From Gloeobacteraceae cyanobacterium SOY_34_metabat_159 (lineage in GTDB: Bacteria; Cyanobacteriota; Cyanobacteriia; Gloeobacterales; Gloeobacteraceae): a DNA stretch of 64,000 nucleotides. The notes below the pieces were generated by a model. The model had not been told where the DNA came from. It did not search any database and was given only the letters and a program-made list of their open reading frames with translations. A program made the position numbers and the translations under genes. The stretch is taken from assembly GCA_031399965.1 (NCBI GenBank), contig JANNPH010000002.1, positions 7,373 to 71,372 on the forward strand, read 5' to 3'. This document shows positions 31,995 to 37,159 of this stretch, in pieces (the stretch's first letter is position 1; every line of letters begins with the position of its first letter).

Positions 31995-32273
31995 TTAAAG
32001 TCCGGGAAACGGTCCTTGCAGGAGATTGATCCACTGGTCGTCGTCTTTTCTAGTCGCGGATGCCGGTGTCGCCTGGACTTTTTTATTAATTTTGCCAATC
32101 TCCTCTACCCAGCGCTGGCGGCTGCTATGTTCAAGGTCGAGGATGGCGTCCGGCGGCCAGTGAAAGTGAAAAGCAATGTAGGCTACCTCCTCGTACAGCC
32201 GGTCGGAGGGGTAGCCAATTATTCCCCCGCGAGGGCAAGCTCCACGGCGAACTTGCTCGCGCACTGCGGGCAT
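31995..32273 (-). CDS. Small conserved-looking protein at the 3' end of the CIS operon (possible frameshift extension)
   Basis: 92-aa ORF with core YPSDRLYEEVAYIAFHFHWPPDAILDLEH. Its only ATG lies 55 nt inside the upstream gene, in the -1 frame. Confidence 0.5.
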   Translation of the reverse strand: MPAVREQVRRGACPRGGIIGYPSDRLYEEVAYIAFHFHWPPDAILDLEHSSRQRWVEEIGKINKKVQATPASATRKDDDQWINLLQGPFPGL

Positions 32274-32596
32274 TGGGCCGGGATATGCAGGTTACCTTGC
32301 TGGTTGAGCCGGTTGTAGAGTTCGCGCAGGTAGGCAATGTCGCGGGTAAACAAATTTTCAAGTAGCTCGGGTGTGAGGGCGCTCAGGCTCCCGAGGCGGG
32401 TAATCACGCGGGAGAGCATGACGAGCACGGCGTAGGCCGGATTTTCCCGGGCGCGACTGTCCTGCTGGACGACGAGTTCGTCCTTGGCGGTGGCGAGGCG
32501 CATGATGCCCTGGCGATGTACCCGGCCCTGGGTATCCAGCAATCCGCGCGGCAGGGTGAATTCAAATTCGGTGTGCAGTGTCTCCTTGCGGGCCAT
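32219..32596 (-). CDS. Tail-assembly-chaperone-like small protein, paralog B
   Basis: 125 aa, clearly homologous to the adjacent upstream ORF (FEFTLPRG..HRQGIMRLATA..NPAYAVLVMLSRVI..LGSLS). It occupies the post-tube position of Afp/PVC-type loci. The function is inferred. Confidence 0.7.
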   Translation of the reverse strand: MARKETLHTEFEFTLPRGLLDTQGRVHRQGIMRLATAKDELVVQQDSRARENPAYAVLVMLSRVITRLGSLSALTPELLENLFTRDIAYLRELYNRLNQQGNLHIPAQCPQCASKFAVELALAGE

Positions 32597-32622
32597 GACA
32601 TCTTCGCTTTTACTGTGAGAAT

Positions 32623-32976
32623 TTAAGAAGGAACCGGCGGCTGGGGTCTCGTCGCCTCGGGGGTGAGGCCGTTGATTTGCCTGTAAAAGTTTTGCAGGTA
32701 ATTGAGGTCGCCTGCAAAGAAGTTCTCGACGACCGCCGGGGTCACCTCGCTTAGCGACCCCAGGTTGATGATCACCCGCGCGAGAATGATCACCGTGGCG
32801 TAGGCCGGGTTGGACTTGACGCGCGGGTCGCGCAGGGGGGCAATTTCGTCGATGGCCATCGCCAGACGCATCACCCCTTTGCGGTGGAGGTTGCCTTCAG
32901 AGTCGAGGTAACCCTTGGGCAGGTTGAATTCAAACTGGGTTTGAATTTTTTCCTGGGTTTGAATTTTTTCGCTCAC
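32623..32976 (-). CDS. Tail-assembly-chaperone-like small protein, paralog A
   Basis: The GTG at 32976 lies 2 nt after the tube gene stop. The product is (M)SEKIQTQEKIQTQFEFNLPKG...NPAYATVIILARVI. The longer track ORF overlaps the tube gene. Confidence 0.65.
   Translation of the reverse strand: MSEKIQTQEKIQTQFEFNLPKGYLDSEGNLHRKGVMRLAMAIDEIAPLRDPRVKSNPAYATVIILARVIINLGSLSEVTPAVVENFFAGDLNYLQNFYRQINGLTPEATRPQPPVPS
32935..32970 (-). repeat. Perfect 18-bp tandem duplication inside paralog A
   Basis: ctgggtttgaattttttc occurs twice back to back (32935-32952 and 32953-32970) and encodes EKIQTQ-EKIQTQ. Confidence 0.95.
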
Positions 32977-32978
32977 GA

Positions 32979-34496: not shown

Positions 34497-34579
34497 TTTC
34501 TTGCTCCTGGTAGTTGGTGATGAAAGGGTTCGAGGGCTTCACCCGCCCCTAGGGAGGATGAAGCCCATCTATTAAGTCG

Positions 34580-36253
34580 TCAACCGACGTCTTCTTCGCT
34601 GCTGCCGTTCCACTGGCTGATCCGGAAGACGACGAATTCTGCCGGACGTACCGGGCAGACGCCGACTTCGACGTACAACCGGCCCAGGATCATCGTCTCG
34701 GGCGTGTTCAGTTCTTCGTCGCACTTGACGTAGAAGGCCTGCTCAGCCGTCGCGCCGAAGAGGGCACCCTCGCGCCAGATGCGTTCGAGGAAGTTGTTAA
34801 TCGTCCGCTTGACGCGCATCCAGAGGTCCTGGTCGTTGGGCTCGAAGACGGCCCACTGGGTGCCGAGTTCGATCGATTTCTCGATGTAGCTGATGAGTCG
34901 CCGGACACTGATGTAGCGCCACTCGGTCTTGTCGGGTTCCACCAGAGTGCGCGCGCCCCAGATGCGGATGCCGCGGTTGGGGAAGGAGCGGATGCAGTTG
35001 ATGCCGAGGGGGTTGAGAAGCTCCTGTTCGCGGAAGTTGGTGTCGTAGCCGAGGCCGATTACGCCGCGCGGCACTTCGTTGGCGGGGGCTTTGTAGACGC
35101 CGCGGGTCTCGTCCGTACGTGCCCAGACGCCCATCATGTGGCCGCAGGGCGGGACCAGGATGGGCCTGCCGCCGTTGCGCGGGTTGGAGACTTTGATCCA
35201 CGGATAGTAGAGGGCAGCAAACATCGAGCGGCGATTGAATGCCGAGAGCCACTGCACGACTTCCTGGGGCTTGACGCGGTCGGGGGGCGGGTCGAGCACC
35301 ACCATCCGGTTGGGCGGGTTGGGGATGTCGCCGTTGGCCGAGCCTTCGCAGAGGCTGATCATCATTTCCATGATTGCGTGCACCTGTTCGATGTCGAGCA
35401 GGTTGGCTTCGTAGGCGCGCATGATGTCCGGGCAGGCGAGCATCGTGATTTCGTCGATTTCAAAGATGCCGCGTACACCGGTGCGGTCGTCGCGCAGACC
35501 CTCGACGTCGCGGGCGAAGCGGTCAACGGTCGAGGCGACCAGGGGCGGCGAGAGTTCGTACTGGCCGTTGCCGGGGCGACGGGCCAGGGGACGCCCGGTC
35601 TGGGCAAGGTCCTGGACACCGATAAACTGTGAAGCCTGTACGGCGTTGACGACGTAGGTCGCCGTCTGGGTCGGGGCGTCGCGGTCCATCGTCAGGTAGT
35701 CGAAGCGCTCCAGGATCTGGTCGCCGCGCTTGACGGTGACGCTGAAGTATTCACCGGTGTTGACCGGCTGTTCGCCTTCAGTACCGTCGGGTAGCGCGCG
35801 CGGGCCACTGTCGGCCACCTGAACCAGTACTGATCCCTGGGCACTCGCCTCGGGCTTCAGGACAAAGCGCAGCGACGGACGGTTGCCGCGGCTTTGCACC
35901 GAGAGGCCGGTCTCGGTGGTCGGCTGGGGAGTACCCGGTTGCGGTCCGGGAAGCTGGGTGCCGATAGAAGTCACCCAGCAACGGCCGCCGCCGTTCATGA
36001 AGTAGCCGTAGACCGCGAAGGGCAAGTAGGCGTTGAAGTCGGTGAAGCCGTCGGAGCCGGGACGGGCATAGTAGTTCTGGAACTGGGTCCAGTTGGTGAT
36101 GAGCATCGGCTTGAAGGGTTCTGCCCCGCCGCGCACATCCTCAGTGAAGCCGACGAAACCGGCGACGGCGGTGCTGACGCCCTCAATCGGGCGAGAACCG
36201 CGATCGATTTCTTCGATATAGACGCCGGGTGCAAAATAATCGAGTCTTGGCAT
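34580..36253 (-). CDS. Contractile-tail sheath protein
   Basis: N-terminal PGVYIEEI...VAGFVGF, conserved core YYPWIKV, NCIRSFPNRGIRIWGARTL, and C-terminal PAEFVVFRISQW. Start taken at Met MPRLDY (the alternative is 36298). Confidence 0.9.
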   Translation of the reverse strand: MPRLDYFAPGVYIEEIDRGSRPIEGVSTAVAGFVGFTEDVRGGAEPFKPMLITNWTQFQNYYARPGSDGFTDFNAYLPFAVYGYFMNGGGRCWVTSIGTQLPGPQPGTPQPTTETGLSVQSRGNRPSLRFVLKPEASAQGSVLVQVADSGPRALPDGTEGEQPVNTGEYFSVTVKRGDQILERFDYLTMDRDAPTQTATYVVNAVQASQFIGVQDLAQTGRPLARRPGNGQYELSPPLVASTVDRFARDVEGLRDDRTGVRGIFEIDEITMLACPDIMRAYEANLLDIEQVHAIMEMMISLCEGSANGDIPNPPNRMVVLDPPPDRVKPQEVVQWLSAFNRRSMFAALYYPWIKVSNPRNGGRPILVPPCGHMMGVWARTDETRGVYKAPANEVPRGVIGLGYDTNFREQELLNPLGINCIRSFPNRGIRIWGARTLVEPDKTEWRYISVRRLISYIEKSIELGTQWAVFEPNDQDLWMRVKRTINNFLERIWREGALFGATAEQAFYVKCDEELNTPETMILGRLYVEVGVCPVRPAEFVVFRISQWNGSSEEDVG

Positions 36254-36316
36254 GGATAGGCTTCCTGTAGGTAAGGTGTTCTGGCTGGCACCGGCCACTG
36301 CCGTGTATCAGCCCCG

Positions 36317-37159
36317 TTAGCGTGGAGTCAGGAGAATTTCCTTGAAGGTGTAGCTCTGGGAATCAACCAGAACGTTGCATCTCTGGGTTGCGTAGCCGGG
36401 GCAATCCAACTCCAGTACGTAGTGACCGAGGGCAAGATTGTCGAAGAAGAACAATCCTTCCTGGTTGCTAGTCGCCGCCTTCTCGGTACCGGCAATCGCC
36501 ACTTTCGTCGCCGCAAGCGGCAAAGTGGTGATTGCATTTTTGACCACCCCGGCCACGGCCACCCGCCGGGTCCGCACCGCATCGGCGCCACCGTCCGCCG
36601 TATCCGAGCGCAGGCGGGTAATCCGCTCCCACACCAGGGGTACGGGCGCGGCCGGGTTCGGGTTGACCGGGGCTGTGACTGTCACCATCAGGGCCGGGCG
36701 CAACGGTACTCCGAGGGCAAGCCACAAGGTGCTGATGTCGAGAGGCCGCACGGAACTCACCGTCATCGTCAGGTTGCCGAAGCCGCGCAAGGCCGGGGCT
36801 AAGAGGTCTTCGCGCAGCGAACGGTGGCGCAACAGCAGACTGAGCGCTTCAGAGAGCAGGTGGTGTTCTCCGAGCACCGTGCGGTCCCAGGCCGTGACCA
36901 GAAAAGAGACGTCAAACCAGATCGGTAGCCAGCCGACGGCGGCCATCGGACGGTCATCGACATAGCGGCGCTCGACCTGACGGCCCGAGTGCGGTACCTG
37001 CGCGTTTTCGCGCAGGTCATAAAAGTAGACATTCAGCCCTGGCCGGTCACCCGCCGCCTGCCTTTCGCCGGGGGACGCGAAATCAATTTGCTCGGTACTG
37101 GTGAGGGAAGTTCCCCCGGCCAGGATCTCGGCCAGGGTCTGGACCAGGGCTGTAATCAT
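36317..37159 (-). CDS. Pvc16/Afp16-like tail cap (DUF4255) fused to a carboxypeptidase-regulatory-like beta-sandwich
   Basis: The N-terminus has DUF4255-like features (LNVYFYDLRENA...WFDVSFLVTAW). The C-terminal ~90 aa (VAGVVKN...GLFFFDNLALGHYVLELDCPGY) resembles a CarboxypepD_reg fold. Confidence 0.7.
   Translation of the reverse strand: MITALVQTLAEILAGGTSLTSTEQIDFASPGERQAAGDRPGLNVYFYDLRENAQVPHSGRQVERRYVDDRPMAAVGWLPIWFDVSFLVTAWDRTVLGEHHLLSEALSLLLRHRSLREDLLAPALRGFGNLTMTVSSVRPLDISTLWLALGVPLRPALMVTVTAPVNPNPAAPVPLVWERITRLRSDTADGGADAVRTRRVAVAGVVKNAITTLPLAATKVAIAGTEKAATSNQEGLFFFDNLALGHYVLELDCPGYATQRCNVLVDSQSYTFKEILLTPR

What the first reader, a model, noticed from the sequence alone, without database searches (positions are those of the whole stretch)
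31995..37159. Contractile-injection-system 'trunk-only' module: cap, sheath, three tubes and chaperone-like genes, but no baseplate, spike, tape measure or ATPase
Eight co-oriented, tightly packed minus-strand genes encode, in order: a Pvc16/Afp16-like cap (DUF4255), a sheath (PGVYIEEI... PAEFVVFRISQW), three T4 gp19-like tube paralogs, two paralogous small proteins, and a small overlapping ORF. This order matches the 5' half of Afp/PVC-type extracellular CIS loci. Canonical loci then continue with a tape measure, a LysM tube initiator, VgrG-like spike, PAAR, gp25, baseplate J and an AAA+ ATPase. None of these is recognisable anywhere in this 64-kb window. The operon instead runs into a 150-nt gap and a Ser/Thr kinase gene. 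Either the apparatus is split across distant loci, which would be unusual for eCIS, or this is a degenerate or repurposed sheath-tube module. CIS are poorly studied in cyanobacteria.
Basis: partly seen in the sequence, partly recalled or inferred. Interest (0 to 1): 0.8.

Follow-up and report, generated by a model that had tools for sequence, protein, structure and literature searches.

The report
Tail-trunk operon of a modular cyanobacterial injection system
These eight genes are the intact cap, sheath, tube and chaperone operon of a phage-tail-like injection machine found across cyanobacteria; its spike and baseplate genes lie in separate modules that are simply not next to it in this Gloeobacter-like genome.

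Summary
Window 31995-37159 (minus strand) encodes a Pvc16/Cis16-type cap, a sheath, three gp19-type tubes, two paralogous tail-assembly chaperones and a DUF6760 reading frame. No spike, baseplate, ATPase or tape-measure gene lies anywhere in the 64 kb.

It is not a misassembly or a decaying remnant. The complete Gloeobacter violaceus and G. kilaueensis genomes have the same layout. All eight genes are intact, with dN/dS mostly 0.07-0.28, like a neighbouring housekeeping gene.

The operon belongs to a cyanobacteria-wide contractile injection system (CIS) family, found in 207 GTDB species genomes. Its closest solved relative is the cytoplasmic Streptomyces CIS. In relatives the missing parts exist as separate modules:
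- Hub and spike: a fourth tube, a giant disordered protein, CIS_tube, VgrG and PAAR.
- Wedge: gp25, baseplate J and P2-I.
- A module with an AAA+ ATPase.

These modules are contiguous in Microcoleus, divergent in Rivularia and dispersed in Gloeobacterales. The best reading is therefore a split locus. I could not search the rest of a Gloeobacter genome to prove it.

Two further points:
- The "small overlapping ORF" is probably the -1 frameshift extension of the second chaperone. A GGGGGA site is conserved in 80 of 83 loci.
- A histidine kinase/response regulator pair and Ser/Thr kinase or FHA genes accompany the system throughout.

The parts
36317..37159 (-). Cap / tail terminator (Cis16/Afp16-like) with an extra C-terminal beta-sandwich domain
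   Evidence: Pfam Pvc16_N E 2.7e-23 and CarboxypepD_reg E 1.3e-8. Best PDB match is 9gts_0A, the S. coelicolor Cis16 cap (E 1e-19, residues 5-211). dN/dS 0.07-0.10.
34580..36253 (-). Contractile sheath (Cis2-like), 557 aa. The ORF is open to a GTG at 36298, but orthologues start at 36253.
   Evidence: Pfam Phage_sheath_1 and 1C. Full-length match to S. coelicolor Cis2 8BKY (E 4.9e-122). 89% identical to G. violaceus Glr4100. dN/dS about 0.1.
34035..34496 (-). Tube T1, the best-conserved tube and so the likely major inner tube protein
   Evidence: Phage_T4_gp19 E 4e-30. TIGR02241 141.6 bits. 52-84% identical to the first tube gene of every related locus checked.
33512..34000 (-). Tube T2, a Gloeobacterales-specific duplicate of T1
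   Evidence: Phage_T4_gp19 E 1.5e-22. 36% identical to T1. Nostocales loci have only two trunk tubes.
32979..33500 (-). Tube T3, orthologue of the second trunk tube of Nostocales and Microcoleus
   Evidence: Phage_T4_gp19 E 6e-25. 43-55% identical to L006, L065 and L091 T2.
32623..32976 (-). Tail assembly chaperone 1 (TAC1), 117 aa
   Evidence: PHROG 508 'tail assembly chaperone' E 4.3e-4. 49% identical to TAC2. Gene call of 117 aa in L001. 71% identical to the single chaperone of Microcoleus L091.
32219..32596 (-). Tail assembly chaperone 2 (TAC2), 125 aa. It ends ...GCG GGG GAA TAA.
   Evidence: PHROG 508 E 2.8e-10. Weak Pfam Phage_TAC_7 hit, E 0.0076, seen in 8 of 32 family members.
32223..32228 (-). 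Putative -1 frameshift (slippery) site GGGGGA
   Evidence: Present in 80 of 83 loci, always with the first G at codon position 3; one locus (L028) has GGAAAAG in its place. The two synonymous third positions inside it are the only invariant ones among 27 four-fold sites: 69/69 and 78/78 G, against 39-91% elsewhere.
31995..32228 (-). DUF6760 segment in the -1 frame of TAC2 (77 aa from the slip site). Probably made as a TAC2-DUF6760 fusion.
   Evidence: Pfam DUF6760 E 2.6e-13 and a weak Phage_P2_GpE hit. The conserved peptide starts exactly at the slip site. 43 of 81 loci have no start codon upstream of it in that frame.
30970..31845 (-). Ser/Thr protein kinase, a conserved downstream neighbour of the trunk operon
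   Evidence: Pkinase E 3.3e-33. Same position in G. violaceus, G. kilaueensis, L003 and L004. The kinase family is present in 50 of the 88 loci compared. dN/dS 0.16-0.26.
37211..38554 (+). Histidine kinase, divergent from the cap gene. Its true start is probably further downstream.
   Evidence: HATPase_c E 4e-27 and a weak HisKA hit. The HK/RR pair is adjacent and divergent in 63 loci.
38575..39249 (+). NarL/LuxR-type response regulator, partner of the kinase
   Evidence: NCBIfam NarL-family hits, E 4e-37. Orthologues carry Response_reg and GerE. 83-86% identical within Gloeobacter.

Best explanation
The eight genes are the trunk-and-chaperone operon of a lineage II contractile injection system (CIS). 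The operon encodes the cap, the sheath, three tube paralogues, two tail-assembly chaperones, and a -1 frameshift extension of the second chaperone. The family is conserved across cyanobacteria. Its closest solved relative is the cytoplasmic CIS of Streptomyces coelicolor.

The machine is encoded in separable modules:
- Trunk: the operon in this window.
- Hub and spike: a fourth Afp5-like tube, a 900-1700-aa acidic disordered protein that may act as the tape measure, CIS_tube, VgrG and PAAR.
- Wedge: gp25, baseplate J, P2-I and DUF4159.
- An AAA+ ATPase with a second Pvc16-like protein.
- Signalling genes: a histidine kinase/response regulator pair, FHA proteins and Ser/Thr kinases.

In the genus Gloeobacter only the trunk, the two-component pair and one kinase sit at this site. 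The other modules are inferred to lie elsewhere in the genome, at least 27 kb away.

Inferred mechanism: the baseplate and spike modules build a nucleus; tube and sheath subunits from this operon polymerise on it; the chaperones hold the length-determining protein; the cap hexamer terminates growth. Expression or firing is probably controlled by the adjacent two-component system and by Ser/Thr phosphorylation.

Shown here: gene identities, conservation, modularity in relatives, purifying selection, and the recoding signature. Inferred: the presence of partner modules in this genome, the regulation, the tape-measure role, and the cellular role.
For: Gene identities.

Same layout in the complete G. 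violaceus and G. kilaueensis genomes and in other Gloeobacterales.

All genes are intact. dN/dS is mostly 0.07-0.28, against 0.10-0.13 for the aminotransferase control.

The family is in 207 GTDB species genomes. Sheath identity follows taxonomy: 89% within Gloeobacter, 82-85% in other Gloeobacterales, 75-80% in Nostocales and others.

The missing parts exist in relatives of the same family:
- Gloeobacterales MAG L088: tube, 997-aa protein, CIS_tube, VgrG, PAAR.
- Rivularia L089: the same genes plus gp25.
- Microcoleus L091: sheath 66% identical to the window's, running directly into tube, 1669-aa protein, CIS_tube, VgrG, PAAR and a DUF4157 protein, with the AAA+ ATPase alongside.
- Wedge genes gp25, Baseplate_J, Tail_P2_I and DUF4159 follow in 28-42 of 81 VgrG-centred loci.

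Modules are rearranged or separated in many loci.

Keeping chaperones and their recoding site implies that a chaperoned partner protein still exists.
Against: I could not search a whole Gloeobacter genome, so the partner modules are not demonstrated for this organism.

A search with the fourth-tube protein listed its 120 best hits, down to about 51-57% identity. None came from the 4.66- or 4.72-Mb Gloeobacter chromosomes.

None of the window's three tubes is orthologous to that fourth tube; identity is at most 28%.

Geller et al. 2021 scored 0 of 2 Gloeobacter genomes as eCIS-positive. Their rule of at least 10 core genes in one operon would miss split loci anyway.

Gloeobacter also lacks the FHA protein that follows DUF6760 in most other loci.
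Confidence: 0.72

Rival explanations
1. Orphan trunk. The genus Gloeobacter lost, or never had, the spike, hub, wedge and ATPase modules. It keeps cap, sheath, tubes and chaperones under selection for another use, for example a baseplate-independent sheath-tube polymer, or assembly on a non-homologous nucleator.
For: No close fourth-tube orthologue from either complete Gloeobacter chromosome among the best 120 hits. No module gene within 27-32 kb on either side. 0 of 2 Gloeobacter genomes counted as eCIS-positive. Some related loci also lack the two-component, PBP, FHA and spike genes next to the trunk (L003/L009, L006).
Against: In every characterised contractile system the tube and sheath polymerise from a baseplate (established knowledge). 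Chaperones and their frameshift site, which serve a tape-measure-type partner, are retained under purifying selection. Absence from a top-120 list is weak negative evidence. Other Gloeobacterales do carry the spike module.
Confidence: 0.15
2. Decaying remnant of an eCIS or prophage tail, no longer functional.
For: The locus is incomplete relative to canonical loci. T2 of G. kilaueensis is only 37-39% identical to the other two T2 proteins, with dN/dS 0.75-0.84.
Against: All eight reading frames are intact in three species that are separated by dS of about 0.7-1.8. dN/dS is 0.07-0.28 for most genes, matching the housekeeping control. The position is syntenic across Gloeobacterales. No capsid, terminase or integrase gene is nearby.
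Confidence: 0.03
3. Assembly or binning artefact that cut a contiguous canonical locus.
For: The source appears to be a draft assembly; the exact sheath sequence is recorded on a 90.5-kb contig.
Against: The same gene order, and the same downstream kinase and aminotransferase, occur in two finished chromosomes and in several independent MAGs. The window continues for 27-32 kb of ordinary chromosomal genes on both sides.
Confidence: 0.01

Closest known systems
Streptomyces coelicolor cytoplasmic CIS (CIS-Sc; Casu et al. 2023 PMC10066040; Casu et al. 2025 PMC12237407; dbeCIS subtype IId)
   Same: The sheath aligns over its full length with Cis2 (8BKY, E 4.9e-122). The cap matches Cis16 of the solved cap complex (9GTS, E 1e-19). 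Both have more than one tube paralogue. Both lack a recognisable Afp14-type tape measure and Afp13 fibre. The sheath genes form their own operon.
   Different: The Streptomyces genes lie in one 19-gene cluster, whereas here the trunk stands alone. The cyanobacterial cap has an extra CarboxypepD_reg domain. This family carries a histidine kinase/response regulator pair, FHA proteins and Ser/Thr kinases; the word 'kinase' does not occur in the Streptomyces paper. Cytoplasmic location and a cell-death role are untested here.
Anabaena sp. PCC 7120 thylakoid-anchored CIS (tCIS; Weiss et al. 2022, PMC8894136)
   Same: It is a cyanobacterial CIS. Two genes precede the sheath gene all3325, and the tube genes all3324 and all3323 follow it.
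   Different: It is a different family. All3325 matches only the C-terminal 185 residues of the window's sheath (E 1e-54). The tCIS cluster is contiguous (all3313-all3327). tCIS is anchored in thylakoids, which Gloeobacter does not have (established knowledge).
'Split-locus' eCIS and the T6SS-iv of Amoebophilus asiaticus (Chen et al. 2019, PMC6899500)
   Same: A CIS encoded across two or more distant genomic sites. Thirteen such genomes were reported, in both lineages.
   Different: I could not check whether Gloeobacter is among those 13, because no supplement is held. Here the split recurs across a family and follows module boundaries (trunk, hub/spike, wedge, ATPase). It is not a one-off.
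Phage tail assembly chaperones made by programmed -1 frameshift (lambda G/GT, P2 E/E+E', Mu gp41/42; Xu, Hendrix and Duda 2004, from my own knowledge)
   Same: The chaperone gene lies after the tube genes. A second frame overlaps its 3' end in -1. The slippery run is conserved. There are weak Phage_TAC_7, Gp41_Mu and Phage_P2_GpE hits and a PHROG 508 hit.
   Different: The site is a G5A run that fits slippage of a single P-site tRNA, not a classical X XXY YYZ heptamer. The chaperone gene is duplicated. In Gloeobacter no tape-measure gene follows. Frameshifting has not been tested experimentally. I found no paper describing it in a CIS.
Afp / PVC extracellular CIS (lineage I)
   Same: Homologous sheath C-terminal domain (Pvc2, Afp2-4; E 1e-31 to 1e-48). 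Shared tube fold and Pvc16/Afp16 cap domain.
   Different: In Afp/PVC the cap gene is last and a tube gene is first (gene numbering afp1-16). They have three short sheath paralogues where this system has one 557-aa sheath. They have an Afp14 tape measure and an Afp13 fibre, and the locus is contiguous.
T6SS threonine-phosphorylation pathway (PpkA / PppA / Fha1 of Pseudomonas aeruginosa H1-T6SS; from my own knowledge)
   Same: A contractile machine genetically linked to a Hanks-type kinase and FHA-domain proteins.
   Different: No phosphatase was identified. The FHA proteins are absent from the Gloeobacter locus. The link is purely genomic. The machine itself is not a T6SS.

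Membership tests
Contractile injection system, eCIS-type superfamily (Chen 2019; Geller 2021) | Single-chain phage-type sheath and gp19-type tube | tested here: met
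   Pfam Phage_sheath_1 and 1C, and Phage_T4_gp19 three times. TIGR02241 passed above cutoff three times.
Contractile injection system, eCIS-type superfamily (Chen 2019; Geller 2021) | eCIS-specific cap / terminator with a Pvc16_N (DUF4255) domain | tested here: met
   Pvc16_N at 83 bits against a cutoff of 27. Matches the solved Cis16 cap.
Contractile injection system, eCIS-type superfamily (Chen 2019; Geller 2021) | Afp8 (VgrG) and Afp11 (baseplate J) in the same locus; at least 10 core genes in one operon (Geller's criterion) | tested here: not met
   None in the 64-kb window. Both are present in relatives of the same family. The locus therefore fails the operational definition, while the family meets it.
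Contractile injection system, eCIS-type superfamily (Chen 2019; Geller 2021) | Afp15-type AAA+ ATPase | tested here: not met
   Absent from the window. A WHD plus AAA protein lies next to the trunk in L029 and L091, and members of the same ORF cluster do so in L017, L024, L053 and L076.
Contractile injection system, eCIS-type superfamily (Chen 2019; Geller 2021) | No phage capsid, terminase or portal genes nearby | tested here: met
   Pfam on the window's long ORFs finds none.
Streptomyces-type cytoplasmic CIS (subtype IId) | Full-length sheath homology to Cis2 and cap homology to Cis16 | tested here: met
   8BKY E 4.9e-122 over residues 5-551; 9GTS cap E 1e-19.
Streptomyces-type cytoplasmic CIS (subtype IId) | Placement in clade IId of an Afp11-based tree | not testable with these tools
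   There is no Afp11 gene in the window, and no reference tree or dbeCIS data are held.
Streptomyces-type cytoplasmic CIS (subtype IId) | Free-floating cytoplasmic particles; stress-induced firing that needs the membrane protein CisA; a cell-death phenotype | not testable with these tools
   Needs cryo-ET and genetics. A CisA homologue was not searched for.
Thylakoid-anchored CIS (tCIS, Anabaena) | Cis12 extension, Cis13 transmembrane fibre and Cis19 crown that anchor the particle in thylakoid stacks | tested here: not met
   No such genes lie in the window. The sheath is only distantly related. Gloeobacter has no thylakoids (established knowledge).
Type VI secretion system | Two-subunit TssB/TssC sheath, Hcp, ClpV and a TssJLM membrane complex | tested here: not met
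   The sheath is a single Phage_sheath_1 protein. The tubes are gp19-type, not Hcp. No T6SS families appear in the window.
Split-locus eCIS (Chen 2019) | Afp11 and the other core genes present in the same genome at a distant site | not testable with these tools
No tool left could search BA000045.2 or the source assembly.
Phage-type tail assembly chaperone pair made by -1 frameshift | Chaperone homology | tested here: met
   PHROG 508 E 2.8e-10 and 4.3e-4. The Pfam Phage_TAC_7 hits are all below the curated cutoff.
Phage-type tail assembly chaperone pair made by -1 frameshift | Conserved slippery site, with the downstream frame lacking its own start codon | tested here: met
   Motif in 81 of 83 loci at a fixed codon phase. 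No start codon in 43 of 81. Synonymous sites are invariant only inside the motif.
Phage-type tail assembly chaperone pair made by -1 frameshift | The fusion protein is actually produced; a tape-measure gene follows | tested here: inconclusive
   No expression data exist. In Gloeobacter no gene follows. In Nostocales an FHA-disordered protein follows.

The most novel reading that the evidence does not exclude
The genus Gloeobacter has no spike, hub, wedge or ATPase genes anywhere in its genomes. It nevertheless keeps cap, sheath, three tubes and frameshifting chaperones under purifying selection, next to a dedicated two-component system and a Ser/Thr kinase. That would mean a contractile sheath-tube assembly nucleated without a canonical baseplate, or used for something other than injection, in the deepest-branching, thylakoid-less cyanobacteria.
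Probability: 0.13. Interest if true: 0.85.

Novelty: new variant of a known kind. Interest (0 to 1): 0.45.

Why it matters
The "trunk-only" puzzle has an ordinary explanation, but the family behind it deserves attention.

- It is a contractile injection system present from Gloeobacter to Nostoc. The sheath is 75-89% identical across that span, and within Gloeobacterales it is at least as conserved as a neighbouring housekeeping enzyme.
- It is related to the cell-death CIS of Streptomyces, not to the one cyanobacterial CIS studied so far.
- Operon-based catalogues miss it whenever its modules are apart. Geller et al. scored Gloeobacter as having none.
- It is consistently linked to a two-component system, FHA proteins and Ser/Thr kinases. 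This gives a testable handle on how a non-T6SS contractile machine is switched on.
- The conserved G5A recoding site would be a programmed frameshift in a CIS. I found no paper describing one. It points to the giant disordered protein as the missing length ruler of lineage II systems.
- Gloeobacter violaceus is culturable, so particles, localisation and regulation can all be examined directly.

Tried and rejected
- A homologue search with the N-terminus of the 1027-aa protein of L004 returned nothing, because that stretch is low-complexity. This wasted one of the three searches.
- The exact sheath protein of the source genome is not indexed, so its contig could not be extended.
- Supplement searches for Gloeobacter: none are held for Chen 2019, there was no hit in Weiss 2022, and Geller 2021 has only the "0 of 2" line. 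I could not tell whether Geller's catalogue contains this family in Sphaerospermopsis.
- Literature searches for Gloeobacter with CIS, for FHA or kinase with cyanobacterial CIS, and for frameshifting in CIS found nothing relevant.
- A metagenome scan with the Gloeobacterales VgrG gave no hit above 67% identity, so it found no Gloeobacter-like spike locus. It did define the wedge module.
- A profile search of the chaperones against PDB sequences found nothing.
- The promoter and terminator scan was uninformative: terminator-like sites were no more frequent than in shuffled sequence, and no minus-strand terminator was found between the DUF6760 frame and the kinase.
- The aminotransferase could not serve as a conservation control outside Gloeobacterales, because the copies in L017 and L024 are paralogues at 28% identity.
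- The idea that the window's third tube is the relocated fourth tube was rejected; identity is at most 28%.
- A solitary copy of the fourth tube in Nostoc (L090) showed that this tube also occurs away from any spike module, so a hit to it would not by itself locate a spike module.

Full report
**1. The observation**

The eight co-oriented minus-strand genes exist as described.
- Pfam identifies a Pvc16_N cap with an added CarboxypepD_reg domain, a sheath, three Phage_T4_gp19 tubes and a DUF6760 frame.
- The three tubes pass the NCBIfam TIGR02241 cutoff.
- The two small proteins are 49% identical paralogues. Both match PHROG 508 "tail assembly chaperone" (E 2.8e-10 and 4.3e-4).
- The operon is followed by a 149-nt gap and a Ser/Thr kinase gene. 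Upstream, on the other strand, lie a histidine kinase and a NarL-type response regulator.

About 40 of the longer ORFs (150 aa or more) across the rest of the window were scanned with Pfam. They encode housekeeping or unrelated proteins such as PGK, Ffh, IspD, LpxD and shikimate kinase. A tblastn search of the window used the spike, hub, wedge, ATPase, FHA and PBP proteins that belong to this family in relatives. It hit only the three tubes.

**2. Organism, and whether the layout is real**

- The sheath is 89% identical to Glr4100 of Gloeobacter violaceus and to its G. kilaueensis orthologue.
- Both finished chromosomes show the same order. The response regulator and histidine kinase are divergent. 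Then come cap, sheath, three tubes, two chaperones, DUF6760, kinase and aminotransferase.
- Other Gloeobacterales assemblies agree. Misassembly is excluded.
- All eight frames are intact in three species separated by dS of about 0.7-1.8.
- dN/dS is 0.07-0.28 for most genes. The adjacent aminotransferase gives 0.10-0.13. The exceptions are T2 and the DUF6760 frame in comparisons with G. kilaueensis. The operon is not decaying.

**3. What family it is**

- The closest solved structures are the Streptomyces coelicolor and S. venezuelae CIS sheaths (8BKY and 8BL4, E 4.9e-122 and 2.6e-119, full length).
- The cap matches the S. coelicolor Cis16 cap (9GTS, E 1e-19).
- The sheath of the only studied cyanobacterial CIS, the Anabaena thylakoid-anchored system, matches only the C-terminal domain (E 1e-54).
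- A scan of one genome per GTDB species found relatives in 207 species genomes. Identity tracks taxonomy: 82-89% in Gloeobacterales and 75-80% in Nostocales, Leptolyngbyaceae, Chamaesiphon and Chroococcidiopsis.

**4. Where the missing parts are**

I clustered ORFs from 88 sheath-centred loci, each with 10-kb flanks. None has baseplate genes right after the trunk. They do share a conserved neighbourhood:
- The histidine kinase/response regulator pair is present in 63 loci.
- A PBP-like protein of about 710 aa is present in 54 loci.
- A small FHA protein is present in 51 loci.
- A 78-aa protein and a fourth "orphan" tube lie on the opposite strand.
- Downstream of DUF6760 lies an FHA-headed acidic protein, in 66 loci.
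- Ser/Thr kinases, often fused to WD40 repeats, are present in 50 loci.

Walking outward from the orphan tube showed what follows it.
- In a Gloeobacterales MAG (L088) the order is tube, a 997-aa protein, CIS_tube, VgrG, PAAR.
- In Rivularia (L089) it is tube, a 1599-aa protein, CIS_tube, VgrG, gp25 and a further 733-aa protein cut by the end of the locus.
- In Microcoleus (L091) the sheath is 66% identical to the window's and everything is co-oriented and contiguous. The order is sheath, two tubes, chaperone, PBP-like protein, a 52-aa protein, tube, a 1669-aa protein, CIS_tube, VgrG, PAAR and a DUF4157 protein. A WHD plus AAA+ ATPase and a second Pvc16-like protein sit alongside.
- In 81 VgrG-centred loci the usual continuation is PAAR or DUF4280, gp25, Baseplate_J (731 aa), Tail_P2_I, DUF4159 and then another kinase. 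The wedge block is often missing, inverted or displaced.

The family is therefore a complete lineage II CIS built from modules that rearrange and separate. The window holds only the trunk module with its regulators.

**5. What could not be shown**

- The 120 best hits to the orphan tube reach down to about 51-57% identity. None comes from either Gloeobacter chromosome.
- None of the window's tubes is the orphan tube's orthologue.
- Geller et al. counted 0 of 2 Gloeobacter genomes as eCIS-positive. Their requirement of at least 10 core genes in one operon would miss a split system.

A true orphan trunk therefore remains possible; I put it at about 0.13-0.15. Two arguments weigh against it. Every characterised contractile system polymerises its tube and sheath from a baseplate. 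The chaperones, whose job is to hold a tape-measure-type partner, are retained under selection together with their recoding site.

**6. The "small overlapping ORF"**

- TAC2 ends ...GCG GGG GAA TAA.
- In 80 of 83 related loci the last codons contain GGGGGA, always with the first G at codon position 3. One locus has GGAAAAG at the same place, which is also slippery.
- From that G, the -1 frame encodes the conserved DUF6760 peptide (GG[VI][IL][GS]YPS..LYEEVA.IA.HFHW...). It is about 52 aa in most loci and 77 aa here.
- In 43 of 81 loci that frame has no start codon upstream of the motif.
- I examined 27 four-fold degenerate sites in TAC2 across 79 sequences. Only the two inside the motif are invariant (69/69 and 78/78 G). 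The others show 39-91% for the commonest base, and other glycine codons end in G only 0-30% of the time.

This is the signature of a programmed -1 frameshift of the lambda G/GT or P2 E/E+E' type. Weak Phage_TAC_7, Gp41_Mu and Phage_P2_GpE hits agree. It is inferred, not demonstrated. I found no report of such a frameshift in a CIS.

**7. Likely working**

*Shown:*
- The identities of the parts.
- Their conservation.
- The modular organisation in relatives.

*Inferred:*
- The hub/spike and wedge modules, encoded elsewhere, build a baseplate.
- T1 is the best-conserved tube and so the likely major tube. It polymerises with the minor paralogues T2 and T3.
- The sheath polymerises around the tube, and the cap hexamer terminates growth.
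- TAC1, TAC2 and TAC2-DUF6760 chaperone a length-determining protein.
- The 900-1700-aa acidic, disordered protein after the orphan tube has conserved termini. It is my candidate for that length ruler. Streptomyces and lineage II loci are reported to lack a recognisable tape measure.
- The adjacent two-component system probably controls transcription.
- The kinases and FHA proteins suggest phospho-threonine control of assembly or firing. This is comparable in logic to the PpkA/Fha1 pathway of the T6SS (my own knowledge).
- The homology to the Streptomyces system makes an intracellular, stress-linked role plausible, but this is untested.
- Thylakoid anchoring, as in Anabaena, is impossible in Gloeobacter.

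**8. Comparison with what is known, and novelty**

- Split CIS loci are already on record: 13 genomes plus the Amoebophilus T6SS-iv.
- Subtype IId loci in Calothrix are catalogued.
- The kind is therefore known, and the trunk-only appearance has an ordinary explanation.

I found four things undescribed in the literature available to me:
- The family-wide modularity.
- The systematic kinase, FHA and two-component linkage.
- The recoding site.
- The presence of this family in Gloeobacter, where catalogues report no CIS.

I rate it a new variant of a known kind, with interest 0.45.

Noticed in passing
window 32223-32228 (slip site) and 31995-32228 (-1 frame), minus strand; same position in L002-L087: A conserved G5A run at the end of the second chaperone gene, followed by the DUF6760 peptide in the -1 frame. 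It has the signature of a programmed ribosomal frameshift like phage G/GT or P2 E/E+E'. One locus (L028) has GGAAAAG in its place.
   Followed up: yes
window 30970-31845 and 37211-39249; L004 2516-6219; L006 13756-18925; L097 17843-19375: Signalling genes travel with the system throughout cyanobacteria. They include a divergent histidine kinase/NarL-type regulator pair, small and large FHA proteins, a PBP-like 710-aa protein, and Ser/Thr kinases (plain, WD40-fused or MORN-fused) at the ends of both the trunk and the wedge modules.
   Followed up: partly
L046 14015-16012 (family present in 66 loci; absent from the window): The gene that follows DUF6760 in most non-Gloeobacter loci has an N-terminal FHA domain and a long acidic disordered middle. 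By eye, its C-terminal 130 aa or so resemble a degenerate methylglyoxal-synthase-like domain. Pfam reported only the FHA domain, and the resemblance was not tested.
   Followed up: no
L088 10531-13524; L089 10561-15360; L091 10550-15559; L064 7-2928; L065 205-2952: A protein with no Pfam hit lies between the fourth tube and CIS_tube. It is Pro/Glu/Thr-rich and disordered, its length varies from 915 to 1669 aa, and its N- and C-termini are conserved. It is a candidate length ruler (tape-measure analogue) for lineage II systems.
   Followed up: partly
L090 8757-14580 (Nostoc sp., GCA_054880635.1): A solitary copy of the fourth-tube family sits between two proteins without Pfam hits (408 and 479 aa), near an SMI1_KNR4 gene and far from any CIS genes. 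The arrangement recalls orphan Hcp-effector-immunity islands of the T6SS.
   Followed up: no
L007 12277-12771 compared with window 33512-34000 and L002 12260-12751: The second tube paralogue of G. kilaueensis is only 37-39% identical to those of the window and G. violaceus, which are 72% identical to each other. Its dN/dS is about 0.75-0.84. This points to replacement or relaxed constraint on that paralogue alone.
   Followed up: partly
window 36317-36550 (C-terminal third of the cap gene): The cyanobacterial cap carries a CarboxypepD_reg beta-sandwich of about 70 aa that the 225-aa Streptomyces Cis16 lacks. It would decorate the distal end of the particle.
   Followed up: partly
L091 7054-7412: Two copies of a repeat of about 100 nt fill the gap between the chaperone gene and the PBP-like gene in Microcoleus. 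In other loci the second chaperone and DUF6760 occupy this position, so the repeats may be a scar of deletion or a small mobile element.
   Followed up: no
window 39345-41732, minus strand: A 795-aa protein with G8 and CEMIP beta-helix domains (E 6e-34 and 1e-66) lies just beyond the response regulator. These domains are best known from animal proteins. It does not appear at this position in the G. violaceus or G. kilaueensis loci.
   Followed up: no
window 5108-10063, minus strand: A three-gene cluster: a 1086-aa protein with AMP-binding, carrier and luciferase-like monooxygenase domains, a phosphopantetheinyl transferase, and a thioesterase. It is a small stand-alone NRPS-like or fatty-acyl-processing unit, unrelated to the finding.
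   Followed up: no
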